From: a virus
Reading direction: 5' to 3' (one strand)
Length of the DNA stretch: 64,000 nucleotides
Virus genome (UHGV): UHGV-0222911
The notes beneath the pieces were generated by a model, which worked only from the letters and a program-made list of their open reading frames with translations, had not been told where the DNA came from and searched no databases. The position numbers and the translations under genes were made by a program. Positions 14,144 through 56,728 of the stretch are shown one piece after another; position 1 is the stretch's first letter; each line of letters opens with the position of its first letter.

Positions 14144-16288
14144 ATGAACAAAGTACAGATTATTAAAAAGAATGGCTCACTTGAAGAACCTGATATCAAA
14201 AAAGTTTTAGCAGCAGTAACTAAGTCAGCTAACAGGGTTGGGTATAGAGAACTTCCACCAGATGTTACCCAAGCTCTTGAGTCAGCATTTATGAGGATTC
14301 TGGTAAAGTCCACTAAGCAGAATAATTTACTAATTTCGGTAAATGATATTCACAGTATTGTTGAGGGTGCTTTGGCAGAAGTCAATCACGAGATTTATGA
14401 GTCTTACTCAACATATAGAAATTACCGTAAAGAGGTTGCTCAAAATTGGGATGAACTCTACCAGAAGACTAAAGATACACTCTTCTTAGGTGACCGTGAA
14501 AATGCTAACTTTGACAGCAGTTTAATTTCTACGAAAGGTTCAATTATCCGTGGTTACCTGACTAAAGAAATCTTTAAACAGTATCATCTAACACCAGAGG
14601 AACTTGAAGCCATTGAGAAAGGCTTTATCTATATCCATGATTTAAGAGACCTGATTTTTGGTGGTATTAACTGTTGCCTGTTTGACATTGGTAAAGTACT
14701 AAAAGGTGGCTTTGAAATGTCCGGCATTGAGTACTGTGAACCTAAATCTGTACTGTCAGCGTTGCAGGTTATTGGTGACGTAGTACTTTCAGCAACTGCA
14801 CAGCAATTTGGTGGTTTTACTTTAGCAGAGATTGATAAGGTACTTGTACCGTATGCTAAGAAGTCTCTACGCTATCATGCTGAGAAAGCATCATCTTATG
14901 GTATTCCTAAAGAGCATTACCACAATTATGTAATGGAGCAGTTACAAATTGAACTGACTCAAGGTTTTCAGTCACTTGAGATGAAACTAAATACCGTACC
15001 TTGTAGCCGTGGTGATTTTGCATTCACAACTTTAACATTTGGTTTACTTGACTCAGATATGTCTAATGAGGATAATCGACTACAATACATGATTGCAAGT
15101 ACTCTCCTAGATGTTCGTATGAATGGACAAGGCAAGAGTAAAAAACCTGTTGTATTCCCTAAACTGGTTTATATTTATGACCAGAAGAGACATGATGAGA
15201 ATATCTGTCAAGGTCACCTGTACAGTAAAGCTATTGAGTGTTGCTCTAAAGCAATGTACCCAGATTTCTTAAGTGTGTCTGGTCATGGTGCTGTAGCAGA
15301 GGCTTTTGAGCGTTCTGGTAAGGTAATTTCACCGATGGGTTGCAGAGCCTTCTTATCTCCATATTTTAATGAGGATGGGGAAGAGTTTTACGTTGGTCGT
15401 GCTAACATTGGTGCTGTATCTTTGAACTTGCCAATGATTTACCAGTACTCTAAAGAGAATGGTTTAGATTTCTGGAAAGAGCTTGATAAGTACCTAGAGA
15501 TGATTCGCAACTTCCACAAGAAACGCTACGAAATGATTGCTAATATGCCAGCAAGTTCTAACCCTCTTGCGTTCACACAAGGTGGTCTGTACAAAGGTAC
15601 TAAGAAACCTACTGATAAGGTTGGTTGGGATATCGTGAAGTCCTTCACAGCTTCTTTTGGGGTTACTGCACTTGATGAGTTATCTGTTCTTGCTGAAGGT
15701 AAACGACTTCATGAAGTTGGAAGCTATAGTTTTGCATATGATGTTCTGGCATACATCAACATGAAAACCGAAGAGTTTAAAAATGAAGATGGCTTCTTAT
15801 ATGCCGTCTATGGTACTCCAGCAGAATCACTTTGTGGAACTCAACTAAAACAGTTCAGAGATATGTTTGGCGTTATCAAAGGCGTTTCTGACAAGGAATA
15901 CTTTACAAACAGTTTCCATATGAATGTTGCAGCAGACATCTCACCATTTGAGAAGCAGGACTTAGAAGAGCCATTCTTCCATATCTGTAGAGGCGGTAGA
16001 ATCCAGTATGTAAGAGTAGCTAACCCAGAAAACTTATCAGCACTTAAAAGTTGTATTACAAGAGGGATGTTGAAAGGTTTCTATCAGGGACTTAACTTTG
16101 ACTTAGCAATCTGTGAACATTGTGGTAACAGACCAAAGGCTGATGTTGAAGAATGTGAGGTTTGCCATTCACACGATATCTCTGTGATTAACAGGGTGTG
16201 CGGGTACTTGTCATTCACAAAAATTAAAGGTCAGTCTCGAATGAATGACGCTAAGATGGCAGAAATTAAGGATAGGGTTTCTATGTAG
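14144..16288 (+). CDS. nrdD: anaerobic ribonucleoside-triphosphate reductase
   Basis: 714 aa; C-terminal Zn-ribbon CEHCG...CEVC and glycyl-radical motif RVCGYLS. Confidence 0.9.
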   Translation: MNKVQIIKKNGSLEEPDIKKVLAAVTKSANRVGYRELPPDVTQALESAFMRILVKSTKQNNLLISVNDIHSIVEGALAEVNHEIYESYSTYRNYRKEVAQNWDELYQKTKDTLFLGDRENANFDSSLISTKGSIIRGYLTKEIFKQYHLTPEELEAIEKGFIYIHDLRDLIFGGINCCLFDIGKVLKGGFEMSGIEYCEPKSVLSALQVIGDVVLSATAQQFGGFTLAEIDKVLVPYAKKSLRYHAEKASSYGIPKEHYHNYVMEQLQIELTQGFQSLEMKLNTVPCSRGDFAFTTLTFGLLDSDMSNEDNRLQYMIASTLLDVRMNGQGKSKKPVVFPKLVYIYDQKRHDENICQGHLYSKAIECCSKAMYPDFLSVSGHGAVAEAFERSGKVISPMGCRAFLSPYFNEDGEEFYVGRANIGAVSLNLPMIYQYSKENGLDFWKELDKYLEMIRNFHKKRYEMIANMPASSNPLAFTQGGLYKGTKKPTDKVGWDIVKSFTASFGVTALDELSVLAEGKRLHEVGSYSFAYDVLAYINMKTEEFKNEDGFLYAVYGTPAESLCGTQLKQFRDMFGVIKGVSDKEYFTNSFHMNVAADISPFEKQDLEEPFFHICRGGRIQYVRVANPENLSALKSCITRGMLKGFYQGLNFDLAICEHCGNRPKADVEECEVCHSHDISVINRVCGYLSFTKIKGQSRMNDAKMAEIKDRVSM

Positions 16289-16295
16289 CATACAA

Positions 16296-16853
16296 ATGAA
16301 TTACGAACTAATATATAATGCAATTATTAAGAAGGCACATTCTGAAAGGGGTGTGCCTCTTACATACTACAAATGTCAAGGTAAGGGTTATGAAAGACAC
16401 CATATCATACCAGTATGTCTAGGTGGAGATAAAATTAGTGGAGATAATATTGCTTTGCTTACACCTAGAGAGCATTATATAGCTCATAAATTACTGGTTA
16501 AGATGTATCCAAACAATCATAAGTTATGGTTTGCATGGAACAGGTTAGCTCATGATGGCCTAGATAGGAAAATATCATCCAGAGACTATGAAAAGGTAAG
16601 AGCTTTGAACTCGAAAGCTTTATCTATTGTGAATAAAGGTAGGGTTTTCACTGAAGAACATCGAAGACGATTAGGAGAATCTCAAATAGGCAATACAAAA
16701 TCAAAAGGTTGTAAAAGGTCTATAGAAACAAGGAAGAAGATGTCAGAAGCCGGAAAAAAGCCAAAGAAAAAGAAAACTTGCCCTCATTGTGGTATGACTG
16801 GTGGTGCTGGTAACATGACTCGATATCATTTTGACAATTGTAAGAAAAAATAA
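16296..16853 (+). CDS. HNH homing endonuclease
   Basis: HHIIPVCLGGDKISGDNIALLTPREHYIAHK HNH motif; inserted between nrdD and nrdG; track ORF 16245.. trimmed to first ATG after nrdD stop. Confidence 0.6.
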   Translation: MNYELIYNAIIKKAHSERGVPLTYYKCQGKGYERHHIIPVCLGGDKISGDNIALLTPREHYIAHKLLVKMYPNNHKLWFAWNRLAHDGLDRKISSRDYEKVRALNSKALSIVNKGRVFTEEHRRRLGESQIGNTKSKGCKRSIETRKKMSEAGKKPKKKKTCPHCGMTGGAGNMTRYHFDNCKKK

Positions 16854-17017
16854 CCTTATGTAAAACTTGACATGGTGGTGTGAGTCTTGATAGGCTTACA
16901 TCACCTTTTTATTTGGATGTTAGATATGGCAGAGAGTATTATTGGGTTGTTCATAGGTTCTGTCTTACTAGGGTTCTTTTTAGGACTTTCTTATTGTGAA
17001 TTGAAAGGTAAGTTAAA

Positions 17018-18279: not shown

Positions 18280-18537
18280 ATGGGACTCTGGAATAGTTTT
18301 AAATCAAAAGTAAAAGCAGCACTAGCTTCATTAGGTATGCTCACTGGTGTTGATGTGACTCACCTTATGCAGAACTTCAAGATGGATGAGAAGCTGGCTA
18401 ATGAGATTATGAAAAGTATCTATGTAGGCCGTGGTAAAGGTGGTAAGAAACAAGCCCACCGTCCGTCTGGTGCAGCAGCTATTAAACGAGCAGCTAAGAA
18501 AGCTCGTAACCGTAAACGTAATAAGAAGGCTAAATAA
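18280..18537 (+). CDS. hypothetical protein with highly basic C-terminus
   Basis: 85 aa; C-terminal KRAAKKARNRKRNKKAK. Confidence 0.3.
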   Translation: MGLWNSFKSKVKAALASLGMLTGVDVTHLMQNFKMDEKLANEIMKSIYVGRGKGGKKQAHRPSGAAAIKRAAKKARNRKRNKKAK

Positions 18538-18539
18538 TC

Positions 18540-18860
18540 ATGAGCAAAGTTTATAACACTCGCAAATTACAGATTTTCGTACTGTGCCAGTTTATGGCTA
18601 AAGAATATAACTTCTACTATTGCGGCACAGGTTTTATTAGCGACGATGATGGTTCATACCTACCATTTAAAGAAGCTGTGAAGCTCTTTAATGAAGAGAA
18701 AAGCTCTAAGAAAGATATTGAAAAGGTTAAGCTAACCTATAGCAAGAAAGATAAGAAGATTATCTGCCTAGATAATTTTGTAAAAGTTACTGGAGAAGCA
18801 AAAGAGTTTATGGATGAGAGTGAGATTTCATTCACAAGCATCTTGAAAGTAGCTCAGTAA
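18540..18860 (+). CDS. hypothetical protein
   Basis: 106 aa ORF; followed by hairpin terminator 18873-18900. Confidence 0.3.
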   Translation: MSKVYNTRKLQIFVLCQFMAKEYNFYYCGTGFISDDDGSYLPFKEAVKLFNEEKSSKKDIEKVKLTYSKKDKKIICLDNFVKVTGEAKEFMDESEISFTSILKVAQ

Positions 18861-18872
18861 ACAGATACTATA

Positions 18873-18900
18873 AGGGAACTGTAAAGGTTCCCTTTTTATT
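18873..18900 (+). terminator. rho-independent terminator-like hairpin
   Basis: AGGGAAC-TGTAAA-GGTTCCC followed by TTTTTATTTT. Confidence 0.45.
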
Positions 18901-18911
18901 TTGGAGATAAC

Positions 18912-19427
18912 ATGTATCTGACAAATCTGAAACGTTCGGCTGCAATGTCAGTGCTAAGACTCAGCTTTGAGGAACGTCAAGAGTTCATTGACTCCCACCA
19001 ATACGACCATTCTAACTCCAATCACATGATTCTCTGGAATCGTGGCAGTACTCGTGAAAGAGCACTATTCCGCTATTACCCACACTACACCATAGACAAC
19101 CTGTATGAATGTTTTGTTGTGAAGAACACTATCACAGTACTCAACAAACTTTGCAGATACACAGGTAACCAGTCCTTCACATTAGGTCACCACAAACCTG
19201 TTACAAAAGGTGGTGAACATCACTGTGCAAACTGGTTTATCCAGACTAAACTTGATAACCAGAAGCAAGGTGATAGCCTTTTAAGCACCCCTAAGATGAC
19301 CTATGAAGAGCAAGAGAAATATATCAAAAATAATATGCCAGATGTGCTTGACAACAACTATACAGATTTGGCAATATCTCTCCTGTTGAAGTTCGAGACA
19401 GTTTATAGGGCAACTTATAATGGCTAA
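18912..19427 (+). CDS. HNH endonuclease-like protein
   Basis: GHHKPVTKGGEHHCANWFIQTKLDNQKQGD resembles HNH motif; 171 aa. Confidence 0.4.
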   Translation: MYLTNLKRSAAMSVLRLSFEERQEFIDSHQYDHSNSNHMILWNRGSTRERALFRYYPHYTIDNLYECFVVKNTITVLNKLCRYTGNQSFTLGHHKPVTKGGEHHCANWFIQTKLDNQKQGDSLLSTPKMTYEEQEKYIKNNMPDVLDNNYTDLAISLLLKFETVYRATYNG

Positions 19428-19698
19428 AGAAAAGTGGGAGATTTTACCATTAGTTAGCGAAGGTGGTAATGGTTGTGAGATGTACATGATACGAGGCCAT
19501 GTTCCAGAACCAATTGCACTTGAGATGATAAACAATTTTACAGATGGTTCTTACAAAGACTTAGGCGAACCAACTGTCAAGCAACAATGGGTTAAACCTG
19601 TACCAGACAGCACAGGCAACTGTAGTGTACTTTATCACGTTGTGGACCCTGCAAAATGCAAATCTGCAATGGCAGTAACAAACGTAACTTTTGATTGA
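19420..19698 (+). CDS. hypothetical protein
   Basis: 92 aa ORF. Confidence 0.3.
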   Translation: MAKEKWEILPLVSEGGNGCEMYMIRGHVPEPIALEMINNFTDGSYKDLGEPTVKQQWVKPVPDSTGNCSVLYHVVDPAKCKSAMAVTNVTFD

Positions 19699-19710
19699 GA
19701 GAGAAAAACT

Positions 19711-20592
19711 ATGAAAACATCTATCCGTGTTACAGTTCATTCACCAACTAAAGGAACTCATGAAGAAGAGTTTAACATCATCCAATTTCCTTCTGGTGAG
19801 ATTGGTGGACACTTTTCGCCAGAGTTTGTTGATTTTACTGCTTATGCAGCATCATCCATCAACAATGTGATTATGATTGTAAAAGGTTATGATAAGGACA
19901 CATTGTTTGCTGTGGCACTTGCTAAAGAAGCAATTGATGATTTAATTCCTCACGATTATGCTTTAAAGACTGTCATCTTTTACTACTTACCAAATGCACG
20001 ATATGACCGTCACATGTTTAAAGGCGACGCAGCAGCTTTAAAGGTTTTTGCTAAACAGATTAATGCAATGGGGTTTGGCGCAGTCTGTGCAGTTGACCCT
20101 CACAGCTATGTACCAGATAACCTGTTTAACTGCTTCCAGAGTATTCCTCAAAAGGAAATTGCAGTCCACTATGCAAATGACCCACTGATTGATTACTTAG
20201 TAGCCCCAGATGCAGGTGCTGCTAAGAAGATTGCAGAGACTGCTAAAGAGGTGGATAAACCATACATCACAATGTCTAAAGTGCGTAACCTTAAGACTGG
20301 TGAAATTACTGGTATGCGAATCCTTGATGATGTTGATTTGACAGATAAAACCGTTATGATTCTGGATGATATCTGTGATGGTGGTCGAACCTTCATAGAA
20401 GCAGCGAAACATCTTCGTGAAGCAGGTGCAAAACGTGTGGAACTTTATGTAACACATGGTATCTTCTCTAAAGATGTTGAAAACCTTCTTGACAATGGTA
20501 TCGACCATATTTACACTACAAACTCTTTAGGCGAAGCTAAAGACCGTGGCTTAACACATTACAGTCAAGTTACTGTAGCAAACCTTGATTGA
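19711..20592 (+). CDS. ribose-phosphate pyrophosphokinase-like enzyme (Prs family; candidate ADP-ribose pyrophosphate synthetase of an NAD+ reconstitution pathway)
   Basis: 293 aa; PRPP-binding motif VMILDDICDGGRTF; immediately upstream of a NAMPT-like gene. Confidence 0.65.
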   Translation: MKTSIRVTVHSPTKGTHEEEFNIIQFPSGEIGGHFSPEFVDFTAYAASSINNVIMIVKGYDKDTLFAVALAKEAIDDLIPHDYALKTVIFYYLPNARYDRHMFKGDAAALKVFAKQINAMGFGAVCAVDPHSYVPDNLFNCFQSIPQKEIAVHYANDPLIDYLVAPDAGAAKKIAETAKEVDKPYITMSKVRNLKTGEITGMRILDDVDLTDKTVMILDDICDGGRTFIEAAKHLREAGAKRVELYVTHGIFSKDVENLLDNGIDHIYTTNSLGEAKDRGLTHYSQVTVANLD

Positions 20593-20601
20593 AAGTTTAT
20601 A

Positions 20602-20621
20602 GGGGCTTAAAAGCCCCATTT
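20602..20621 (+). terminator. hairpin between the two NAD-pathway genes
   Basis: GGGGCTT-AAA-AGCCCC followed by ATTTT. Confidence 0.3.
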
Positions 20622-20637
20622 TGAGAGAGATTAAAAG

Positions 20638-22419
20638 ATGACTAAATCACTTTATGCAGTACCAGCAGGTTTAAATGCAGATGCTTACAAATCTGGTCAT
20701 GTTTACCAGTATCCTAGCGCAACAGAGTACTTGATGTTCAATCTGACACCACGTAGCGACAAATGGTTTAACAGCCCTTTAGCAATTGACGGTGTAGTGG
20801 CTTTTGGTATTCAACGTTTTGTTAAAGATTACTTGATAGACCACTGGAATGCCACTTTCTTTGAACGTGATAAAAAAGAAGCCATTGATGAAATCTTAGA
20901 AGTCATGAATGGTGTTCTGGGTAAAGATGCTATCGGTCGAGAGCATTGGGAAGCACTTCACGACTTAGGTTATCTACCAGTTGAAGTATACGCTGTAGAA
21001 GAAGGCACAGTTGTTCCAATGCGTGTCCCGATGATTGTCTTTCATAACACTGTTTCAGGTTTTCATTGGGTAGCAGGTTATCTGGAAGATGCTTTCTCTG
21101 CTGAAATTTGGAAGGCTTGCACCATTGCAACTATTGCATTGCATTACAAACGCATCTGTAAGAAGTGGGCTGACCTTACTTGTGACAATGACTTACATTT
21201 ACCTTATCAGTGCCATGATTTTGCTATGCGTGGTATGTCCGGCTTTACTGATGACGCATTTAACGCTGTAGGTCACTTAACCAGCTTTAAAGGGACTGAT
21301 AGCTTCCCTGCTGTATACACGGCTAAACGAATCTATGGACAGTCCTACCCAATCTCTGATATTGGTAGCTCTGTACCAGCCACTGAGCACTCTGTAATGT
21401 GTGCAAACATTGCTTGGGAAGGTGGTAACGAGTTAATTGAAGAAGAAAGACGCTTTAAAGGTGAGTTACAAACCTTCCGTCGTTTCTTAACAGAAACTTA
21501 CCCAACTGGTATTGCAAGTGTTGTTTCAGATACTTATAACTTCTGGAGAACTGTATCAGTCATATTACCAGAACTCCGTAAAGAGATTATGGAACGTAAT
21601 GGCAAACTGGTAATTCGTCCTGATTCTGGAGACCCTGTACATATTGTCACAGGATACAAAGCAATCCATTTAGAGTGTGCTAAAAAGGCTTATTATGAAC
21701 ACTTAAGCAAGCTGGAAGCCAGTGACACAATGTTGAATGCTGTTCTGAACATGAAGCTTGAAAACATCAATTATGGTATTGCTGGATGGCTACTGTCAGA
21801 AGGCTACGAAATGGTTGTTGACAGAGAAGACTTTGAAGTTGCTGATACAGTGCTGTTGAAAAACGCTTATATGGTTGGTTCTGCAAACGTTGTAACACGT
21901 CCTGTAGCGGAGATTGATGGAGCTATCAAGACACTGTATAACATCTTTGGAGGAACTATCAACTCTAAAGGTTTTAAAGTACTGGATGAGCATATCGGGC
22001 TTATTTATGGCGACTCTATCACGTTGGAACGTGCAAACGAAATACTGAAGCGTTTGTATGAAATGGGTTTTGCAAGCTCTAACGTAGTGTTTGGTGTAGG
22101 TTCTTACACTTACCAGTACATGACTCGTGACACCTTTGCATTTGCTGTCAAAGCAACTCTTGGAAGCATTGGTGGTAAAGAGATTATGCTTGCAAAAGAC
22201 CCTAAAACAGATAGTGGTGTTAAGAAGTCTGCTTTTGGTGGTGTAGCACCTATGTGGGATGGTGAAAATCTGAAAGCTGTAGATGGCTATGGGTTCCAGA
22301 GCTTTGCAGATGCACTTGAACACCCAGCTTGTGCTTTACGTCTAGTCTTTAGCGACTCTGAGCAGTTCGGCTACACGACTCTTGGTGATATTCGAAATAA
22401 TATTGACAAGCAGCTTTAA
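20638..22419 (+). CDS. nicotinamide phosphoribosyltransferase-like enzyme (NAMPT/NadV family)
   Basis: 593 aa; N-terminus MTKSLYAVPAGLNADAYKSGH and overall length typical of NAMPT-family proteins (recalled). Confidence 0.75.
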   Translation: MTKSLYAVPAGLNADAYKSGHVYQYPSATEYLMFNLTPRSDKWFNSPLAIDGVVAFGIQRFVKDYLIDHWNATFFERDKKEAIDEILEVMNGVLGKDAIGREHWEALHDLGYLPVEVYAVEEGTVVPMRVPMIVFHNTVSGFHWVAGYLEDAFSAEIWKACTIATIALHYKRICKKWADLTCDNDLHLPYQCHDFAMRGMSGFTDDAFNAVGHLTSFKGTDSFPAVYTAKRIYGQSYPISDIGSSVPATEHSVMCANIAWEGGNELIEEERRFKGELQTFRRFLTETYPTGIASVVSDTYNFWRTVSVILPELRKEIMERNGKLVIRPDSGDPVHIVTGYKAIHLECAKKAYYEHLSKLEASDTMLNAVLNMKLENINYGIAGWLLSEGYEMVVDREDFEVADTVLLKNAYMVGSANVVTRPVAEIDGAIKTLYNIFGGTINSKGFKVLDEHIGLIYGDSITLERANEILKRLYEMGFASSNVVFGVGSYTYQYMTRDTFAFAVKATLGSIGGKEIMLAKDPKTDSGVKKSAFGGVAPMWDGENLKAVDGYGFQSFADALEHPACALRLVFSDSEQFGYTTLGDIRNNIDKQL

Positions 22420-22432
22420 AAGTATATGATAA

Positions 22433-22455
22433 GAGGCTCCTACGGGAGCCTTTTT
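22433..22455 (+). terminator. rho-independent terminator-like hairpin
   Basis: GAGGCTCC-TACG-GGAGCC followed by TTTTT. Confidence 0.45.
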
Positions 22456-22472: not shown

Positions 22473-22808
22473 ATGAAAATCAAAGAGATGAACATCAACA
22501 TCGTCTTAGAAGAACGTTGGGAGAACATTAAGAAGCCTGAAAATGGTCATAAGTTCCTTAACAAAATTTTAGTAGCAGCTAAAGAAGAACTGACTGGTAA
22601 GATTGCAGCAGCAATCACAATAAAGGTCTGTGTAAAAGGTCTTCCAGACAATCACCAATTTGCACTTGACGAGTTTAAAGAAAGCTTCTACAATCCAAAC
22701 AAACAGATGCTTGAAAGTAACTTTGCAGTGTCTACAAGTATCGTCCATGACAGAAGCTTTATCCTTTACAAGAATATGAGAGGTGAGTCATGCAAGCATA
22801 TTGGATAG
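22473..22808 (+). CDS. hypothetical protein
   Basis: 111 aa ORF. Confidence 0.3.
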   Translation: MKIKEMNINIVLEERWENIKKPENGHKFLNKILVAAKEELTGKIAAAITIKVCVKGLPDNHQFALDEFKESFYNPNKQMLESNFAVSTSIVHDRSFILYKNMRGESCKHIG

Positions 22809-22965
22809 AAATTTTGCTGTCACTTGGTAGTGTAGCAGTATTTGTTTACCTCCTTTGTAAGTACTTTGCAGAGCACAAAAAATGTGACTACTGTAATGGA
22901 GAGGGGTACATAAGGGCAGGATGTTGCCCTATGTGTGGTGGTTCTGGTAAAATGTTTAACAAGTA
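22789..22965 (+). CDS. hypothetical small membrane-anchored zinc-ribbon protein (58 aa)
   Basis: Own translation: MQAYWIEILLSLGSVAVFVYLLCKYFAEHKKCDYCNGEGYIRAGCCPMCGGSGKMFNK; one TM helix plus CxxC...CxxC; below track cutoff. Confidence 0.25.
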
Positions 22966-22994
22966 ATTTAACAGTAAACTAAGAGGAAAGTATT

Positions 22995-25361
22995 ATGCGC
23001 ATGGTAAATGACCACGCAGAAGTGATTAAGAGTTCAACTTCTTTAGAGACGTCTCAAGCACAGATTACAATGACACCTGAGATGTTCAGCCTTTTGAGTT
23101 CTGGTGTATATACCTTTAAAGAAAGGGCAGTGATTCGTGAACTGTCATGTAATGCAGTAGATGCTCAGAAAGAAGCTGGAAAAGAAAACATCCCGTTCCA
23201 TGTGCATTTACCTACTCGATTTGAGCCTTACTTTGAAGTCCGTGACTTTGGAACTGGTTTAACCCATGACAAAGTAATGAGTTTGTATCTGAACTACGGT
23301 GCTTCTACGAAGAATGACTCTAATGACTACATTGGTGCAATGGGTATCGGCTCAAAGTCACCGTTTGCAATTGCTCAGTCATTCACAGTATCTAGCTATG
23401 TTGATGGTGTTGTTAATAAGTACTCTGTTTACCTTGAGAATGGTATCCCTCAAGTAACTAAGCTTACTACTAACCAAACAAATGAACCTAATGGTTTAGC
23501 GGTACGTGTGGCAGTTGCTGACCACCGTATCTCAAAGTTCTTTGAAGAAGCTGGGAATGTGTACTCATACTTCACTGTAAAACCAGAAAGTAATATTGAG
23601 TACGACGATGTATTAGCAGATATGAACGTCATTGCCCGTGAAGAAGGTGTTTATGATGCCATGATTCATAAGCAAAGCTGGCGTTCTAGTGGTAACAGGA
23701 CAGAGTTTAATGTGGTGATGGGTAATATTGCCTATCCAGTGAACATGGAAGCATTACTTGGTGATGATTTCTTCAAAGTCTTGCCAGAGTTTTTCCGTAG
23801 GAGCGTAGACCTTGTAAACATCTACATGCCTATTGGTTCAGTTGCTATAGCAGCTTCTCGTGAAGCATTGCAGATGAATGACACGACAAAAAATGTTATC
23901 ATTGAGGCTACTAAAAAGATAACTGAAGCCATTACAAAGGATGTTATCAAGAAAGTTAATAGCCAACCTACACTCATGGATGCTGCACAGGCTTATGCAG
24001 AGTTACGTTTGAACTCACGAGAGATGTTTAATGCTGTGTGTCCAAAGCTAGAGTGGGGAGGCGTTAAGCTTGATTCTCTGGAAGAAGAATTGTTAAACAT
24101 TCGTCGTGGAATTATCTACGCAGAAGACGGCTCAGTCATTTATGAACGTGACGGTAAAGGCAATATTAAGGTTGATAGGAACGGGAACAATATCCCTAAA
24201 GTAGATTATCTTTATGACCCAGTTGCTTATGTCAAGTTCAACTCTTTAGAGAGTAAGATTCGTGCAACAGCACTTTCCTACACTCAAGAGGCAAGCATGT
24301 TCAATATCTTTGGTGCAATGCGTAAAAGCCAAATTGAACAGTTTTTGTTCGTGATTAATGACCGTCGCAATAAAAACGGTACTGAGAAGACTGTAGGACG
24401 CAATCAAATTTTGCGTGGTGCATGTCGAGACTACGCCAGTGAGTCAAATCTGTTTCACAGATACAATGGTATTGTCTTTGTATTCTCTACAGAGAAAGAG
24501 CTAGATGACTTAATCAATCTGCACAAACTTGATAAAAGCTTGTTAAAGATTGTGAAGATGTCTGATAAGGAACATCACTATCAGCGTAAAGAAGCTGTAA
24601 GAGGTGTTGTAAAACTCTGGAAAGCTGTTCCAGCAGAAGGTGTAGCTTCCTATAAAGAGGTTTCAGAGGACTTTGATACAATTGAAGAACCTCAGCTTTA
24701 CATTAAGGCAGTTGGTGACACAGTTGACGGTGAATGTTTTTGCTCATCTCCAGAAGATGTAGCCAAGTCAGTTGCTAATGTTATAGGGAAGACAGTCTAT
24801 GTTTTCCGAAAAGCAAATTGGAAAAAGATACCAGAAGACTGGATTGAAGTAGACGAGAAACTCTTGAACGACAGCTTAACTGACGTTCACTGGATTAACC
24901 ATAACAGATATATGACACGTATCTATATGAATGGTGTCCTCGACCTTACAAGCAGTTGGATTATTGCCAGAAACTTTACGTTCAATAACAGGAAGATTTC
25001 TCGTGGCTATTGCTATTCACGAGACACAAACAAAACTATCTTCTTAGAAGGCAATGAAGATGCTGTTGAGGCAATGTTTGGTAAAATCCAATACGTTGCT
25101 GCACCGTTTGCATACACTTACACTATTAGTAGATTGCAAACTTTGAAAGAATGCCTTGACAATGATACAAAACTGTACAAGAAAATTAAGAAAGCTGGTG
25201 ACCGCATGGTCATTAAGGTGACAAACTACCTTTCAAAAAGAAAACAAGAAAACTTCTTGCTTTCACACTTAGATTGGAATAAAGTGTCACCCATCGAAGT
25301 GAGTAAGTTCTTAGGCTTTGATGTGAAGTGTGTTCCAGAAGGGACTACAATTTACGATTAA
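22995..25361 (+). CDS. rIIA: rIIA-like protein with GHKL (histidine-kinase-like) ATPase domain
   Basis: 788 aa; N-box IRELSCNAVDA, G1 box VRDFGTGL, G2 box GAMGIGSKSPF; followed by rIIB-like gene. Confidence 0.6.
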   Translation: MRMVNDHAEVIKSSTSLETSQAQITMTPEMFSLLSSGVYTFKERAVIRELSCNAVDAQKEAGKENIPFHVHLPTRFEPYFEVRDFGTGLTHDKVMSLYLNYGASTKNDSNDYIGAMGIGSKSPFAIAQSFTVSSYVDGVVNKYSVYLENGIPQVTKLTTNQTNEPNGLAVRVAVADHRISKFFEEAGNVYSYFTVKPESNIEYDDVLADMNVIAREEGVYDAMIHKQSWRSSGNRTEFNVVMGNIAYPVNMEALLGDDFFKVLPEFFRRSVDLVNIYMPIGSVAIAASREALQMNDTTKNVIIEATKKITEAITKDVIKKVNSQPTLMDAAQAYAELRLNSREMFNAVCPKLEWGGVKLDSLEEELLNIRRGIIYAEDGSVIYERDGKGNIKVDRNGNNIPKVDYLYDPVAYVKFNSLESKIRATALSYTQEASMFNIFGAMRKSQIEQFLFVINDRRNKNGTEKTVGRNQILRGACRDYASESNLFHRYNGIVFVFSTEKELDDLINLHKLDKSLLKIVKMSDKEHHYQRKEAVRGVVKLWKAVPAEGVASYKEVSEDFDTIEEPQLYIKAVGDTVDGECFCSSPEDVAKSVANVIGKTVYVFRKANWKKIPEDWIEVDEKLLNDSLTDVHWINHNRYMTRIYMNGVLDLTSSWIIARNFTFNNRKISRGYCYSRDTNKTIFLEGNEDAVEAMFGKIQYVAAPFAYTYTISRLQTLKECLDNDTKLYKKIKKAGDRMVIKVTNYLSKRKQENFLLSHLDWNKVSPIEVSKFLGFDVKCVPEGTTIYD

Positions 25362-25440: not shown

Positions 25441-26346
25441 ATGACTACTAAAACTAAAGCACAGATTGACGCAGAAATTTACGAACTGGTTAAAGAAGGT
25501 AAGCTGACTAAAACAGCTATTGCACAGAAGTTCAATACTTCAACCCGTTCAGTTGGTCGTGCTGTAGAGCGTCATGAAGCAACCTTAAAAGGTAAGAAGA
25601 AGGCGACTTCTACACCAGCTAAGAAGACCCTAAAACAAGTTGCTAAGTCAGTTAAAAAGAAAGCTGACAAACCAGTTGAAAAGGCCGTTAAAGACGCTGT
25701 ACAGAAAGCTCCAGTAAATAAACTGCATGAAGCTATGCAGAAAGATGACAAGATTGAGTACATGATTACTGGTGACTCTGTAATTATGACTTACGGTTCA
25801 GAATCTGAAATTGTTGAGTCTACTCATCCGAACTATCAAGAGATTGTAGTTCATGTTGTGAAAGGTGAGTTCAAGAAAGCATTTGAACTGATGAACATTC
25901 GTAAGTCTATCGAAAACTTCACTCAGGGTGCTATCACAATCAAAGGTGACAAGCTCTTCTACGGTGCTGTTGAGATGCGTTCTACTCTGGTTGACCGTAT
26001 TCTTCACATGATGAAAACTGGTGATAAAGGTTTTGAACGACTTGTAATGTTCTTCGAAAAACTGATGGAAAACCCATCTAAAGATTCTGTAGAACAACTT
26101 TGGGGATTTGTATCTCACCTTGATGTTGAAATTGATGAAGAAGGTTACATCATTGGTTGGAAGAAAGTCTCTACTCGTGAAGGCAAGCTGGTTGACTCTC
26201 ACACCTACAAAGTGCCTAATGATTTGGGTAACATTGTAGAGATGCCACGTTGGATGGTTGATAACAACCGTAACGTAACTTGCTCTCAAGGTCTTCATGT
26301 TGGCGCTTGGATTATGTTCGTTGCTTCTCAGGTGATACCATCCTGA
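25441..26346 (+). CDS. rIIB: rIIB-like protein, 5' portion (reading frame interrupted near 26302-26310)
   Basis: 301 aa ORF downstream of rIIA-like gene; C-terminal TCSQGLHV then frame is lost; continuation is in overlapping frame. Confidence 0.5.
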   Translation: MTTKTKAQIDAEIYELVKEGKLTKTAIAQKFNTSTRSVGRAVERHEATLKGKKKATSTPAKKTLKQVAKSVKKKADKPVEKAVKDAVQKAPVNKLHEAMQKDDKIEYMITGDSVIMTYGSESEIVESTHPNYQEIVVHVVKGEFKKAFELMNIRKSIENFTQGAITIKGDKLFYGAVEMRSTLVDRILHMMKTGDKGFERLVMFFEKLMENPSKDSVEQLWGFVSHLDVEIDEEGYIIGWKKVSTREGKLVDSHTYKVPNDLGNIVEMPRWMVDNNRNVTCSQGLHVGAWIMFVASQVIPS

Positions 26347-26549
26347 AGGTTCGTGTCCATCCACGAGATGTTGTATCCGTACCAACTGATTACAACGATA
26401 TGAAGATGCGTTCCTCTCGTTATGAAGTTGCAGCAATCGTTGATAATCAACGTAAAGTGCTGAAAGCATGGGATGGTAAGACTGAAGCTTTGCATGTCAT
26501 CGTTGGCACTGCTGGTGAACTTATCTCTCAACGTAAACGTGAAATCTAA
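26310..26549 (+). CDS. rIIB: rIIB-like protein, 3' portion in shifted frame
   Basis: Frame-0 translation DYVRCFSGDTILKVRVHPRDVVSVPTDYNDMKMR... continues the rIIB-like sequence; no ATG at its 5' end. Confidence 0.4.
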   Translation, partial: DYVRCFSGDTILKVRVHPRDVVSVPTDYNDMKMRSSRYEVAAIVDNQRKVLKAWDGKTEALHVIVGTAGELISQRKREI

Positions 26550-26564
26550 TAAGTAATTTCTTAA

Positions 26565-47138: not shown

Positions 47139-48554
47139 ATGAGCGAATTATTTAAACATGCGCACCTTCATGCAGGTCGAACTGAAAATGGTGCTGTAAA
47201 CCATACTTCATCAATGTCTGCTCTTGTAGACTTTTACAAAGCTGCTGGTTCTAGCCGTAGCAATGTAGAAATCTTACCAGACCTGTTCTACAAAGCTTTG
47301 CGTGAGGATGTTGATGTTGCAGTTCGTATTTTACTGCATATGCGAGATGTACGAGAAGGTATGGGTGAGCGTAAAGCTTTCCGAACTGTTTTAATTCAAG
47401 CAGTTGAAGATAAAGTTTTAGAACCTACACAGGTTCTTCGCATTATGGATAAGATTGCAGAGCTTGGTCGCTTTGATGACTTCAAAATCTTTGTAGGTAC
47501 TCGTTTCGAGACAGATGCCTTCAAACACTTAGAAGCAGCATTACTAGACCCTGCAACAGCAGGTTTGGCGGCTAAGTGGTTACCACGAGTCAAACCACGT
47601 CATAAGCAGTTTGTAAAACGTTTCTGCAAGTTTGCCAACTTGAGCGAGAAAGAGTACCGCACACTGTTGTCTGCACTATCTGATACAGTTGAGCAAAAAA
47701 TCTCTGCTAATGAGTTTGGTAAGATTGACTACAGTAAGATTCCTTCACTTGCTGCTGCACGCTACCAAAAACTGTTTAACCGTAAAGATGGAGAGCGATA
47801 CAAAGCTTACATCGAGTCCTTATCAAAGGGTGAGGCTAAGATTAATGCTGGTGCTGTTTACCCATACGATGTGATTAAATCTGTCAAGCATGGTAATGCA
47901 GATGTTGCTAATGAGCAGTGGAAAGCACTACCAAACTGGATGGCAGAAGGTGAAAACATCTTATGTATGTCTGATGTATCAAGTTCAATGTCTTGGGTGA
48001 ATTTTGGCTCCATTACTGCTCTGGATATTGGTGTATCACTTGCCTTGTATGTAGCAGAACGCAATACAGGCTGCTTTAAGAATGAGTTGATGGTTTATTC
48101 AACAAACCCTCACTTCATCGAACTGAGTGGTGATTTACGAAACCGTCATCGTCAGGTGATGCGACACGTTGAATATGGCTCAACTAACTTACAAGCAGCT
48201 TTTGACCGTATTCTTGAGGTAGGTAAGAGAAACAACTTGACTCAGAAAGATATGCCAAGTAAGCTTATCATCTTCTCTGATATGGAGTTCAATCAGGTTG
48301 ATGGTGCAAATGGTCGTACAAACTTTGAAGTAATTCGTAGTAAGTACAAAAAAGCTGGATACGAAATGCCACAACTAGTATTCTGGTACTTAGCAAACCG
48401 TAATGGTACTTGCGAAGTGTCTGTTAAGGATAACGGTGTAGCAATGGTATCAGGGTTCTCTCCAGCCACTTTAAAAGCTCTGCTCGGTGGTGAGAATTTT
48501 GACCCAATCAGCGTAATGCTCAAAGCAGTAATGATTGACCGTTACATCTGGTAA
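47139..48554 (+). CDS. vWA-domain protein with helical N-terminal domain (possible Ro60/TROVE-like architecture)
   Basis: 471 aa; MIDAS-type DVSSSM (DxSxS) with downstream GSTN and FSDMEF elements in the C-terminal half; N-terminal about 280 aa helical. Confidence 0.45.
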   Translation: MSELFKHAHLHAGRTENGAVNHTSSMSALVDFYKAAGSSRSNVEILPDLFYKALREDVDVAVRILLHMRDVREGMGERKAFRTVLIQAVEDKVLEPTQVLRIMDKIAELGRFDDFKIFVGTRFETDAFKHLEAALLDPATAGLAAKWLPRVKPRHKQFVKRFCKFANLSEKEYRTLLSALSDTVEQKISANEFGKIDYSKIPSLAAARYQKLFNRKDGERYKAYIESLSKGEAKINAGAVYPYDVIKSVKHGNADVANEQWKALPNWMAEGENILCMSDVSSSMSWVNFGSITALDIGVSLALYVAERNTGCFKNELMVYSTNPHFIELSGDLRNRHRQVMRHVEYGSTNLQAAFDRILEVGKRNNLTQKDMPSKLIIFSDMEFNQVDGANGRTNFEVIRSKYKKAGYEMPQLVFWYLANRNGTCEVSVKDNGVAMVSGFSPATLKALLGGENFDPISVMLKAVMIDRYIW

Positions 48555-48572
48555 AAAGTTTTAAAAGGGGTA

Positions 48573-55111: not shown

Positions 55112-56728
55112 TTGCGGAGGCGCTTAATGGACTTAAATGCTGTTAAGCAGAAGCGAGTGGAAGATGTTAGGAAAGTCCTAGCTGGAGAGTTGGGGCTTTC
55201 TGATGAAGTAAAAGAAATTATCAAATCATTCGGTAAAGACCCCTCTAAATTCCTTCCAACTCAAATTCTGACTTTATTAAGATACACACCAGACCAAGTT
55301 AGACTTATCTTCAAATTGATGACTGATAAGAACTATGTAGCCCCTCAGCCGGGTTCTCAAGAGGTCTTTTTAAATACTAATGCTGACTTGGTTCTCTATG
55401 GTGGTGCTGCGGGTGCTGGTAAGACTGCTGCATTGTTAATGGACTCTTTAAGGTTTATTGATGACCCTAATTATAATGCTGTATATTTCCGTCGAAATAC
55501 AACACAGCTACAAGGTGGTTTGTGGCCTGCTGCAAAGAAACTATTTGGTAAGTTTGGTGGGGTTCCTCACGAGCAGAAGATGACTATCACATTCCCTTCT
55601 GGGGCAACTATCAAGTTTACCTATCTAGAGCTTGAAAAGCACGCTGAAGGTCATCAGGGTATTGAGTATTCAGCTATTTACTTTGACGAAGGTACTCACT
55701 TCTCTGCTTCACAGATTTCATACCTACAGACCCGTCTGCGTTCTGGTGCTGAAGGTGACTCATACATGAAGATTTCTATGAACCCAGATAGAGACCACTT
55801 CATTTATGATTGGGTAGAACCCTTCTTAGATGAAGAAGGTTACCCAGACCCTGAGAAGTGCGGTCGTATTCGTTGGTATGTTATGAATGATGGTGTGATG
55901 GTTTCTGATTGGGAAAGAGACAAGATTCTTGAAATGTTCCCTCTTGAGATTCCTCAGACATACACCTTCATCTCTGGTACGATTGATGATAACCCAATTC
56001 TTGACTTCTTAGAACCTAAATATCGTGGTAAGTTGGAAAACAACACACCTGTAAACGTTGCAAGACTTCGTTTCGGTAACTGGAAGGCTCGCGCAGAAGG
56101 TTCAAACTATTGGCAAAGACAATGGTGTGAGATTGTTGATTCACTCCCAGAAGATGTGTTTGATGTCAGAGCATGGGACTTAGCAGCAACTTTACCATCT
56201 GAGATTAACCCTAATCCAGACTGGACAGCGGGTGTTAAGATGGGTAAATCTAAAAAAGACGGTTGCTATTATATCATTGATGTAGTAAGATTTAGAGATA
56301 GACCCTCTGGAGTCGAAACACAAATTAATTTGACTGCTGAAAGTGACGGTAAGCGAACTGGTATTTTTATCCCTCAAGACCCAGGCGCTGCTGGTAAATC
56401 CTATGCAACATCCCTCATCAGGAAACTTGCCGAGAAAGGTTATCGCGCAAGAGCTAAACCAACAAATAAAGATAAAGTTACCCGCTTTGCGGGATTTTCT
56501 GCTGCTTCTGAAGCTGGACTTGTAAAAGTCTTGAGAGGTAGTTGGAACGAAGCTTACTTTCAAGAACTTGAAGGTTTTTGTGGTGATGGTAAAACTAAAG
56601 ATGACCAAGTGGATGCTACCAGTGATGCTTTCAACAGTCTTAACGAAGTTAAATTATTCAAGCCACCATCAATGGGTGCTCACACAGACTTAGTGAGAGG
56701 AAACCCATATGAGGGGCTTAGACGTTGA
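55112..56728 (+). CDS. terL: terminase large subunit
   Basis: 538 aa; Walker A LYGGAAGAGKT, Walker B-like IYFDEGTH; C-terminal nuclease-like region; followed by portal gene. Confidence 0.8.
   Translation: MRRRLMDLNAVKQKRVEDVRKVLAGELGLSDEVKEIIKSFGKDPSKFLPTQILTLLRYTPDQVRLIFKLMTDKNYVAPQPGSQEVFLNTNADLVLYGGAAGAGKTAALLMDSLRFIDDPNYNAVYFRRNTTQLQGGLWPAAKKLFGKFGGVPHEQKMTITFPSGATIKFTYLELEKHAEGHQGIEYSAIYFDEGTHFSASQISYLQTRLRSGAEGDSYMKISMNPDRDHFIYDWVEPFLDEEGYPDPEKCGRIRWYVMNDGVMVSDWERDKILEMFPLEIPQTYTFISGTIDDNPILDFLEPKYRGKLENNTPVNVARLRFGNWKARAEGSNYWQRQWCEIVDSLPEDVFDVRAWDLAATLPSEINPNPDWTAGVKMGKSKKDGCYYIIDVVRFRDRPSGVETQINLTAESDGKRTGIFIPQDPGAAGKSYATSLIRKLAEKGYRARAKPTNKDKVTRFAGFSAASEAGLVKVLRGSWNEAYFQELEGFCGDGKTKDDQVDATSDAFNSLNEVKLFKPPSMGAHTDLVRGNPYEGLRR

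What the first reader, a model, noticed from the sequence alone, without database searches (positions are those of the whole stretch)
19711..22419. Two-gene NAD+ reconstitution module: PRPP-synthetase-like enzyme plus NAMPT-like enzyme
A Prs-family protein (PRPP-binding loop VMILDDICDGGRTF) is followed by a 593-aa NAMPT/NadV-family protein, separated only by a hairpin. Recent work describes phage NAD+ reconstitution pathways that counter NAD+-depleting defences (Thoeris, DSR, some CBASS/Sir2 systems): NARP1 uses a Prs-like ADP-ribose pyrophosphate synthetase plus a NAMPT-like transferase, and NARP2 uses NAMPT plus an NMN adenylyltransferase. No NMNAT-like gene is evident in this window, which favours NARP1, but that cannot be decided from motifs alone.
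Basis: partly seen in the sequence, partly recalled or inferred. Interest (0 to 1): 0.7.

Follow-up and report, generated by a model that had tools for sequence, protein, structure and literature searches.

The report
Known phage NAD+ rebuilding operon (NARP1)
These two genes are the already-described phage pathway NARP1, which rebuilds NAD+ from the fragments left by bacterial NAD+-destroying defences; this copy is a close relative of the one in phage Bas63, where the pathway was discovered, so it is real but ordinary.

Summary
Window 19711-20592 (+) encodes a 293-aa Prs-family protein. Window 20638-22419 (+) encodes a 593-aa NAMPT-family protein. A 45-nt spacer with a GC-rich hairpin separates them.

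The window is a Felixounavirus genome, collinear with Escherichia phage JohannRWettstein (Bas63, MZ501086). NARP1 was discovered in Bas63 by deleting its genes 79-80. The two window proteins sit at the same position as those genes, have the same lengths and spacer, and are 78% (Adps) and 97% (Namat) identical to them. Near-identical proteins from phages HY02 and KhF2 are already listed as Adps and "Adps-associated" Namat in the discovery paper's supplementary tables.

The Namat has the catalytic core and the published ADPR-PP "selectivity clamp" signature (GSYTYQYMTRD). The Adps keeps the catalytic lysine, but its ribose-5-phosphate loop is not the canonical Prs one.

No NMN adenylyltransferase is detectable in the window or in the whole Bas63 genome, so NARP2 is excluded. 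No Macro-domain gene lies in the operon, so it is not NARP1-AP.

The only mildly new lead is an unlinked Macro-domain gene at 29920-30705. It falls in the same PHROG family as the NARP1-associated phosphatase Adpp.

The parts
19711..20592 (+). adps: ADP-ribose diphosphokinase (Prs-like), first enzyme of NARP1; 293 aa
   Evidence: ORF. Prs-family hits. 78% identical over all 293 aa, without gaps, to bas63_0079. 99.7% identical to the HY02 protein (H26), which the discovery paper lists in its Adps table. 33-39% identical to the Adps of SPbetaL1 (tested in vitro) and of phage Gary (whose NARP1-AP operon was validated). Catalytic Lys K190 aligns with SPbetaL1 K162.
20593..20637 (+). 45-nt intergenic spacer: hairpin 20602-20617 (stem GGGGCT/AGCCCC, loop TAAA), then ATTTTG, then a purine-rich ribosome-binding stretch GAGAGAG before the namat ATG
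   Evidence: Sequence; fold -12.8 kcal/mol, z -2.5. The stem is invariant and only the loop varies in Bas63, JH2 and Maleficent. It is absent in Erwinia phage Coenus, SPbetaL1 and Gary. It did not meet the terminator scan's T-run criterion.
20638..22419 (+). namat: nicotinamide ADP-ribose transferase (NAMPT-like), second enzyme of NARP1; 593 aa
   Evidence: ORF. NAMPT-family hits. 97% identical to bas63_0080. Best solved-structure match is SPbetaL1 Namat 9w5w/9w5x at 428 bits, against 175 bits for Xanthomonas Nampt and about 140 for human NAMPT. Catalytic core and clamp residues are present: D15, Y17, K42-W43, F195, R198, D221, H251, R327, D329, G458-D459, G488-S489-Y490, Y494, T496-R497-D498.
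22431..22454 (+). Terminator-like hairpin plus T-run directly after the namat stop codon; probable end of the transcription unit
   Evidence: 10-bp stem, 5 GC pairs, then TTTTTAATTT. Identical in Bas63. Function is inferred from sequence only.
18843..18894 (+). Promoter-like hexamers (TTGAAA-17-TACTAT) followed by a terminator-like hairpin; nearest strong punctuation upstream. ORF 18912-19427, ORF 19420-19698, adps and namat may therefore form one transcription unit.
   Evidence: Consensus matches only; inferred, not shown.

Best explanation
This is the core two-gene NARP1 (NAD+ reconstitution pathway 1) operon of a Felixounavirus.

Many defence systems cleave NAD+ into ADP-ribose (ADPR) and nicotinamide. 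Examples are SIR2-HerA/Nezha, DSR1/2, type I Thoeris, SEFIR, Kongming and SPARSA. Adps (19711-20592) transfers a diphosphoryl group from ATP to the 1'' position of ADPR, giving ADPR-pyrophosphate. Namat (20638-22419) then displaces the pyrophosphate with nicotinamide and regenerates NAD+ directly, without an NMN intermediate or an NMN adenylyltransferase. The phage thereby restores the NAD+ pool and escapes abortive infection.

Shown here: gene presence, orthology and synteny with the founding Bas63 operon, conservation of catalytic and substrate-selectivity residues, and absence of NMNAT.

Inferred from published work on Bas63 (genetics, metabolomics) and on the SPbetaL1, Gary and DyoEdafos enzymes (biochemistry, structure): the chemistry and the anti-defence phenotype.
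For: (1) The window is collinear with Bas63 (MZ501086) from 32495 through the record ends to 9096, at 84-99% nt identity block by block. The two genes lie at the Bas63 gene 79/80 position, with identical lengths (293 and 593 aa) and the same 45-nt spacer.

(2) In Bas63, deleting genes 79-80 sensitises the phage about 20-fold to SIR2-HerA and abolishes ADPR-PP formation and NAD+ recovery. The effect is independent of host pncC and nadR (bioRxiv 10.1101/2024.02.11.579819).

(3) HY02 and KhF2 proteins differing by a single residue from the window Adps are listed in that paper's Adps table. Their Namats are labelled 'Adps-associated'.

(4) Namat carries the signature GSX-Phi-X-Phi-X-Phi-TRD as GSYTYQYMTRD at aa 488-498. 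It also has the Bas63-type SCL residues K42-W43 and all catalytic-core residues (PMC12774641).

(5) BLAST scores for the window Adps are 479 (Bas63), 121 (Gary) and 100 (SPbetaL1) bits against validated Adps, versus 61.6 bits against E. coli Prs. Every Prs equivalog model is far below its cut-off, for example 92 versus 297 bits. The catalytic Lys is conserved. The 5-phosphate loop reads DGGRT instead of the Prs DTGGT.

(6) There is no NMNAT motif or domain in the window or in the whole Bas63 genome.
Against: No experiment was done on this exact allele. The Felixounavirus enzymes themselves have never been purified: Bas63 Adps 'did not purify well', so the biochemistry comes from SPbetaL1 homologues that are only 33-47% identical.

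The N-terminal ~165 codons of this adps are a divergent allele, at 60-79% nt identity to Bas63 against 89-100% in most flanking 100-nt windows.

The third Phi position of the clamp motif is Met rather than the typical Asn or Val.

About 23 kb of this phage's genome lies outside the window, so absence of NMNAT there rests on the Bas63 genome.

Namat enzymes retain some PRPP-to-NMN activity in vitro, so a side role in ordinary salvage is not excluded.
Confidence: 0.95

Rival explanations
1. Classical salvage feeding the host pathway. The first enzyme would be a true PRPP synthetase and the second a true Nampt that makes NMN. Host NadR or PncC would then convert the NMN to NAD+.
For: Pfam, NCBIfam and GenBank annotations say Prs and Nampt. 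The genes lie in a nucleotide-metabolism block next to nrdAB and nrdDG. Namat can make NMN from PRPP in vitro at about half the human Nampt activity.
Against: In Bas63 the counter-defence works in a pncC nadR double mutant, and ADPR-PP is the metabolite seen. SPbetaL1 Adps gave no product in the control reaction meant to test for Prs activity (the preprint's legend names ribose-5-phosphate, its text PRPP), but converted ADPR. The window protein fails all Prs equivalog cut-offs and lacks the DTGGT loop. The Namat-specific adenine clamp is present.
Confidence: 0.03
2. NARP2-type pathway: Nampt plus an NMN adenylyltransferase encoded elsewhere in the genome, building NAD+ from PRPP.
For: The second protein belongs to the same superfamily as KVP40 Nampt. 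About 23 kb of this phage genome is not in the window.
Against: No NMNAT motif or domain is in the 64-kb window. None is in the complete Bas63 genome, which is collinear with the window. The published survey found no phage with both pathways, and 97% of Adps-clade genes sit next to a Namat. The near-identical HY02 and KhF2 Namats are classed 'Adps-associated'.
Confidence: 0.01
3. Extended pathway NARP1-AP with an unlinked phosphatase. The Macro-domain protein at 29920-30705 would dephosphorylate ADPR-1''-phosphate made by aRES-type defences and feed ADPR to Adps. The module would then be functionally three genes rather than two.
For: The Macro protein (Pfam PF01661, 31.7 bits) falls in phrog_335, as does the biochemically validated Adpp of Vibrio phage Gary (380 and 171 bits). 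The two align over the whole Macro domain (27% identity, E 4e-13). They share the same best solved-structure neighbours, OARD1/TARG1. In Pseudomonas phage vB_PaeM_B55 a homologue lies about 2.2 kb past the end of the adps match, about where namat would end.
Against: The gene is 7.5 kb and about a dozen genes away from the operon. The published criterion was within two genes. The same family (T4 Tk.4-like 'phosphatase') matches 2788 phage records, against 1394 for Adps. It includes KAW1E185, a phage on which Nezha defence had to be countered by plasmid-supplied NARP, so the family is not specific to NARP1. It carries an extra ~100-aa C-terminal region of unknown function. Macro domains have many other activities.
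Confidence: 0.2

Closest known systems
NARP1 of Escherichia phage JohannRWettstein (Bas63), genes bas63_0079/0080 (Osterman et al., bioRxiv 10.1101/2024.02.11.579819)
   Same: Same genus and same genomic position (after nrdG and four small ORFs, before rIIA). Same gene lengths, 45-nt spacer and hairpin. Namat is 97% and Adps 78% identical. The downstream terminator is identical.
   Different: The 5' ~500 nt of adps is a divergent allele at 60-79% nt identity. Bas63 has one extra small gene (bas63_0081) after namat that is missing here.
NARP1 of Bacillus phage SPbetaL1 (biochemically reconstituted; Namat structures 9w5w/9w5x, PMC12774641)
   Same: Same two-gene order. The catalytic Lys of Adps is conserved. 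The Namat catalytic core and the SCH clamp motif GS(F/Y)TYQY.TRD are conserved.
   Different: Only 33% (Adps) and 47% (Namat) identical. The SPbetaL1 genes overlap, with no spacer or hairpin. The window Namat has an ~88-aa insertion (aa ~340-427) and an ~11-15-aa insertion (within aa ~259-277) that SPbetaL1 Namat lacks. The SCL stacking residue is W43 after K42, rather than R40.
NARP1-AP of Vibrio phage Gary (Adps-Adpp-Namat; bioRxiv 10.64898/2026.01.28.702374)
   Same: Homologous Adps (39% identity) and Namat (37%). A phrog_335 Macro protein exists in both genomes.
   Different: In Gary the Macro phosphatase lies between adps and namat. Here no Macro gene is within the operon, and the only one is 7.5 kb downstream.
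NARP2 of Vibrio phage KVP40 (Nampt NadV plus Nmnat/Nudix NatV)
   Same: Same purpose (NAD+ supply against NAD+-depleting defence) and a NAMPT-superfamily enzyme.
   Different: NARP2 needs an NMN adenylyltransferase and uses PRPP. No NMNAT is here, an Adps is present, and the Namat-type clamp is present. I could not retrieve the KVP40 sequences for a direct comparison.
Cellular Prs (E. coli b1207) and Nampt (human; Xanthomonas)
   Same: Same folds and families. ATP-site and catalytic-loop residues of Prs are retained (F26, R97, D99, R100, H131, K190, R192). The Nampt catalytic His and NMN-site residues are retained.
   Different: 29% identity to E. coli Prs over the 195 residues that BLAST aligns. 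The window protein fails the Prs equivalog cut-offs. The 5-phosphate loop is DGGRT rather than DTGGT. Namat has the aromatic adenine clamp, which Nampt lacks according to the published comparison.

Membership tests
NARP1 (Adps + Namat) | A Prs-family protein belonging to the phage Adps clade rather than to cellular Prs | tested here: met
   78% identical to Bas63 Adps. 99.7% identical to the HY02 protein, which is listed in the discovery paper's Adps table. BLAST bits are 100-479 to three validated Adps against 61.6 to E. coli Prs. No full phylogeny was built here.
NARP1 (Adps + Namat) | Adps catalytic lysine (SPbetaL1 K162, equivalent to B. subtilis Prs K197) | tested here: met
   K190 in SKVRNLKTGEI aligns with SPbetaL1 HKQRNFHTGEI. 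The mutated residue is defined.
NARP1 (Adps + Namat) | A Namat homologue in the immediate vicinity of adps | tested here: met
   namat starts 45 nt after the adps stop, on the same strand.
NARP1 (Adps + Namat) | Namat catalytic core (SPbetaL1 D13, Y15, F189, R192, D215, catalytic His, R306, D308) | tested here: met
   Window D15, Y17, F195, R198, D221, H251, R327 and D329 are all present.
NARP1 (Adps + Namat) | Namat selectivity-clamp helix motif GSX-Phi1-X-Phi2-X-Phi3-TRD with aromatic X | tested here: met
   GSYTYQYMTRD at aa 488-498, identical to Bas63. Phi3 is Met rather than the most common Asn or Val.
NARP1 (Adps + Namat) | Selectivity-clamp loop providing an adenine-stacking residue (Arg at position 3, or the residue after Lys/Tyr) | tested here: met
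   The loop SDKWFNSPLA has K42-W43, 100% identical to Bas63 Namat, which the structural paper uses as its example of this type. The stacking geometry itself was not modelled here.
NARP1 (Adps + Namat) | ADPR + ATP gives ADPR-PP; ADPR-PP + nicotinamide gives NAD+ | not testable with these tools
   Needs purified enzymes and LC-MS. Shown for the SPbetaL1, P. foliorum and DyoEdafos homologues. The Gary three-gene operon was validated in vivo and its Adpp in vitro.
NARP1 (Adps + Namat) | Counteracts NAD+-depleting defence systems during infection | not testable with these tools
   Shown genetically for the Bas63 orthologues. Inferred here.
NARP2 (Nampt + Nmnat) | An NMN adenylyltransferase gene in the same genome | tested here: not met
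   No G-x-F-x-P-x-(H/T)-x-G-H motif in six frames of the window or of the whole Bas63 genome. No CTP_transf_like or Nudix Pfam hit among 49 ORFs. About 23 kb of this phage was not seen.
NARP1-AP (Adps + Adpp + Namat) | Macro-domain ADPR-1''-P phosphatase within two genes of the NARP1 genes | tested here: not met
   Flanking ORFs 18280-19698 and 22473-25361 have no Macro hit. The only Macro gene is at 29920-30705.
Canonical ribose-phosphate diphosphokinase (Prs) | Reaches the curated equivalog score and has the conserved R5P 5-phosphate loop D-T-(G/A)-G-T | tested here: not met
   All NCBIfam Prs equivalog and PRK models are far below cut-off, for example 104.7 vs 296 and 92.4 vs 297. Only the broad TIGR01251 subfamily passes, at 124.8 vs 113. 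The loop is D-G-G-R-T. The loop definition comes from my knowledge of Prs structures.

The most novel reading that the evidence does not exclude
The Felixounavirus NARP1 may be functionally extended by an unlinked accessory enzyme. The Macro-domain protein at 29920-30705 is in phrog_335, the same PHROG family as the validated ADPR-1''-phosphate phosphatase Adpp. It could supply ADPR from aRES-type cleavage products. These phages would then already resist the defence that was reported to defeat core NARP1. Operon-based surveys (15% of NARP1 phages) would also underestimate NARP1-AP.
Probability: 0.2. Interest if true: 0.4.

Novelty: already known. Interest (0 to 1): 0.12.

Why it matters
NARP1 is an important, recently described counter-defence principle: a virus rebuilds a metabolite that host immunity destroyed. 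This locus adds nothing to that. It is another copy of the founding Felixounavirus operon, of a kind already catalogued among the 859 phage genomes of the discovery paper.

Its practical value is in annotation. GenBank relatives still call these genes 'ribose-phosphate pyrophosphokinase' and 'nicotinamide phosphoribosyltransferase', which mis-states their substrates.

It also offers natural Adps sequence variation (a divergent N-terminal half) and a large Namat insertion. Both could inform structure-function work, since no Adps structure exists yet.

Tried and rejected
(1) NARP2 and classical salvage were rejected. The six-frame NMNAT motif scans of the window and the Bas63 genome were empty. 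Pfam scans of 49 further ORFs gave no nucleotidyltransferase, Nudix or RyR domains.

(2) RyDEP (the RyR-domain glycosidase found inside some NARP1 loci) was rejected. There is no PF02026 hit in neighbours or elsewhere.

(3) In-operon Adpp was rejected.

(4) A direct comparison with KVP40 Nampt and Nmnat failed. The supplementary text held no KVP40 sequence. The KVP40 region I fetched (196-245 kb) held only structural genes. I ran no further search on it, because the authors' own classification of near-identical proteins settles the clade.

(5) I searched for a solved or published Adps structure. None is in the PDB copy or the paper library.

(6) I tested the intergenic hairpin as an intrinsic terminator. 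It does not meet the scan's T-run criterion. Its stem is invariant among relatives, so no covariation test is possible. Its role is left open.

(7) I did not run the large protein-database, structure-prediction or fold-search tools. Their answers would not change the verdict.
Full report
**Observation**

The first protein is a Prs-family protein:
- Pfam Pribosyltran and Pribosyl_synth.
- NCBIfam TIGR01251 at 124.8 bits against a cut-off of 113.
- phrog_619 at E 1.7e-97.
- The quoted loop VMILDDICDGGRTF at aa 215-228.

The second protein is a NAMPT-family protein:
- Pfam NAPRTase and NAMPT_N.
- NF006629 at 467 bits against 405.
- phrog_448 at E 6e-201.

The 45-nt spacer contains a GC-rich hairpin. 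The stem is GGGGCT/AGCCCC at 20602-20617 with loop TAAA, followed by ATTTTG and a purine-rich ribosome-binding stretch.

**What the window is**

A megablast of the locus finds 259 phage records, almost all Felixounavirus and relatives from E. coli, Salmonella, Shigella and Citrobacter. The best is KhF2 at 97.1%.

A whole-window comparison shows collinearity with Escherichia phage JohannRWettstein (Bas63, MZ501086). It runs from Bas63 position 32495 through the record ends to 9096, at 84-99% nucleotide identity in successive blocks.

**Identity with the founding NARP1 operon**

NARP1 was discovered in Bas63 (bioRxiv 10.1101/2024.02.11.579819). Three findings there matter:
- Deleting genes 79-80 made the phage about 20-fold more sensitive to SIR2-HerA.
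- The deletion abolished NAD+ recovery and the appearance of ADPR-pyrophosphate.
- The effect did not need host pncC or nadR.

In the Bas63 record these genes are bas63_0079 (882 nt) and bas63_0080 (1782 nt), separated by 45 nt. Those are the same lengths and spacing as in the window, at the same syntenic position: after nrdG and four small ORFs, before rIIA.

The window proteins are 78% (Adps) and 97% (Namat) identical to them, without gaps.

The discovery paper's supplementary tables list the HY02 and KhF2 proteins in the Adps family. Each differs from the window Adps by a single residue. Their partner proteins are listed as "Adps-associated" Namat (HY02 is 99.7% identical by tblastn). This exact allele has therefore already been catalogued as NARP1.

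**Sequence-level membership tests: Namat**

The structural study of SPbetaL1 Namat (PMC12774641; PDB 9w5w and 9w5x) defines two things: a Nampt-like catalytic core and a Namat-specific "selectivity clamp". The clamp consists of:
- A helix motif, GSX-Phi-X-Phi-X-Phi-TRD, with aromatic X residues that stack on the adenine of ADPR-PP.
- A variable loop that contributes one more stacking residue.

The window Namat meets both:
- Its best solved-structure match is SPbetaL1 Namat at 428 bits. Xanthomonas Nampt scores 175 and human NAMPT about 140.
- It has D15, Y17, F195, R198, D221, catalytic H251, R327, D329 and G458-D459.
- It has the motif GSYTYQYMTRD at aa 488-498.
- It has the Bas63-type loop K42-W43.

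**Sequence-level membership tests: Adps**

- The catalytic lysine that was mutated in SPbetaL1 (K162, equivalent to B. subtilis Prs K197) is K190 here.
- ATP-site residues shared with E. coli Prs are kept.
- The loop that clamps the 5-phosphate of ribose-5-phosphate in Prs (D-T-G-G-T in E. coli) reads D-G-G-R-T here. It is D-G-G-A-S in Gary and S-F-G-G-T in SPbetaL1. The assignment of that loop's role is from my own knowledge of Prs structures.
- Pairwise BLAST scores place the protein with validated Adps (479, 121 and 100 bits) rather than with host Prs (61.6 bits).
- It fails every NCBIfam Prs equivalog cut-off.

**Excluding the alternatives**

Neither is met.
- The nucleotidyltransferase (H/T)xGH motif is absent from all six frames of the window and of the complete Bas63 genome.
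- Pfam scans of 49 further ORFs of at least 100 aa found no CTP_transf_like, Nudix or RyR domains.
- The published survey found no phage with both NARP1 and NARP2.
- The immediate neighbours include no Macro-domain gene. This is therefore the core two-gene NARP1, not the extended NARP1-AP described in bioRxiv 10.64898/2026.01.28.702374.
- By inference from that preprint, core NARP1 alone would not rescue the phage from aRES, which leaves a phosphate on ADPR.

**Mechanism**

The best-supported mechanism is the published one.
1. A defence NADase cleaves NAD+ to ADPR and nicotinamide.
2. Adps uses ATP to make ADPR-pyrophosphate.
3. Namat joins nicotinamide to it and regenerates NAD+.

The gene content, orthology and residue conservation are shown here. 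The chemistry and the phenotype are inferred from Bas63 genetics and from SPbetaL1, DyoEdafos and Paenibacillus enzymology, plus the in vivo validation of the Gary operon.

One caveat applies. The Felixounavirus enzymes have not themselves been purified, and the biochemically tested homologues are only 33-47% identical.

**Anatomy around the genes**

- A terminator-like hairpin with a T-run follows namat at 22431-22454. It is identical in Bas63.
- The nearest comparable element upstream is at 18872-18894, preceded by promoter-like hexamers.
- So ORF 18912-19427 (171 aa; phrog_3500, with a weak HNH-like hit), ORF 19420-19698 (92 aa), adps and namat may be one transcription unit. This is inference from consensus matches only.
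- The adps-namat hairpin has an invariant stem in Bas63, JH2 and the Mooglevirus Maleficent. Only loop bases vary.
- The hairpin is absent from Erwinia phage Coenus (13-nt spacer), SPbetaL1 (overlapping genes) and Gary (Adpp in between). Salmonella phage Si3 has a different ORF at that spot.
- The hairpin is therefore a lineage feature, not part of the NARP1 definition. Its role (attenuation or RNA stability) is open.

**Things beyond the finding**

(a) *Divergent adps allele.* Nucleotide identity to Bas63 is 89-100% in most flanking 100-nt windows. It falls to 60-79% from the adps start codon to about 20200. The N-terminal domain of Adps is therefore a distinct allele, the common one among FelixO1-like phages.

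(b) *Namat insertions.* Relative to SPbetaL1 Namat, the Felixounavirus Namat has an ~88-aa insertion (aa ~340-427) and an ~11-15-aa insertion (within aa ~259-277). The long one is partly shared with Gary. The structural paper does not use the word "insertion".

(c) *Unlinked Macro-domain protein.* A Macro-domain protein is encoded at 29920-30705, 7.5 kb downstream on the same strand. It is the orthologue of bas63_0095, annotated "putative phosphatase".
- In favour of an Adpp-like role: it falls in phrog_335, as does the validated Gary Adpp. It aligns with Adpp over the whole Macro domain (27% identity, E 4e-13). It shares the same solved-structure neighbours.
- Against: the family also matches many T4-like phages (Tk.4), 2788 records against 1394 for Adps. 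One of them, KAW1E185, needed plasmid-supplied NARP to overcome Nezha defence. A NARP1-specific role is therefore only a possibility, which I put at about 0.2.

(d) *rIIB frameshift.* The rIIB homologue is frameshifted near 26310 relative to Bas63.

**Verdict**

The system is already known, and this allele is effectively already catalogued. Interest is low (0.12). The only reading with some novelty is the unlinked Adpp-like Macro protein.

Noticed in passing
window 29920-30705 (+): A 261-aa protein with an N-terminal Macro domain (PF01661, 31.7 bits), orthologue of bas63_0095 'putative phosphatase'. It is in phrog_335, the same family as the validated NARP1-associated ADPR-1''-P phosphatase Adpp of Vibrio phage Gary, and aligns with it at 27% identity (E 4e-13). 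It lies 7.5 kb from NARP1, and the family also matches many T4-like phages (Tk.4), far more records than carry Adps. It has an extra ~100-aa C-terminal region of unknown function.
   Followed up: partly
window 19698-20200 (5' half of adps): A sharp mosaic patch. Nucleotide identity to Bas63 drops to 60-79% from the adps start codon to about codon 165, while most flanking windows are 89-100% identical. The N-terminal domain of Adps exists as at least two alleles among Felixounaviruses.
   Followed up: partly
window 21655-21918 (Namat aa ~340-427) and within 21412-21468 (aa ~259-277): Felixounavirus Namat carries an ~88-aa and an ~11-15-aa insertion relative to the crystallised SPbetaL1 Namat and to human and Xanthomonas Nampt. 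The long one is partly present in Vibrio phage Gary. No Pfam domain is seen there, and the structural paper does not use the word 'insertion'.
   Followed up: partly
window 18843-18894 and 22403-22454: Two similar cassettes (promoter-like hexamers immediately followed by a GC-rich hairpin and T-run, then RBS and ATG) bracket ORF171, ORF92, adps and namat. ORF 18912-19427 (phrog_3500) has a weak HNH-endonuclease-like hit (E 3.7e-4). ORF 19420-19698 (phrog_4726) is unknown.
   Followed up: partly
window 25441-26560: The rIIB homologue is interrupted. Bas63 rIIB aa 1-291 match frame 1 and aa 292-367 match frame 3 of the segment searched. A 1-nt gap in the DNA alignment near 26310 fits a frameshift. 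This could be a sequencing error, a pseudogene or a real variant.
   Followed up: partly
window ~22470 versus Bas63 55508-55852: Bas63 has an extra small gene (bas63_0081, 345 nt) directly after the namat terminator that is absent from the window. Several relatives show the same ~350-nt presence/absence (two-piece hits).
   Followed up: no
window 15341 and 16288-16856: The homing-endonuclease-containing interruption of nrdD in Bas63 (47828-48568) is absent here. The window instead has ~570 nt with ORF 16245-16853 (202 aa) that has no Bas63 counterpart. One ORF in this part of the window has a SegE GIY-YIG domain. Which ORF carries it was not checked.
   Followed up: no
L012 (Salmonella phage Si3, KY626162 60835-61326): In Si3 a 163-aa hypothetical ORF follows adps where the hairpin and namat start lie in other Felixounaviruses. 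This suggests an insertion that splits the NARP1 pair.
   Followed up: no
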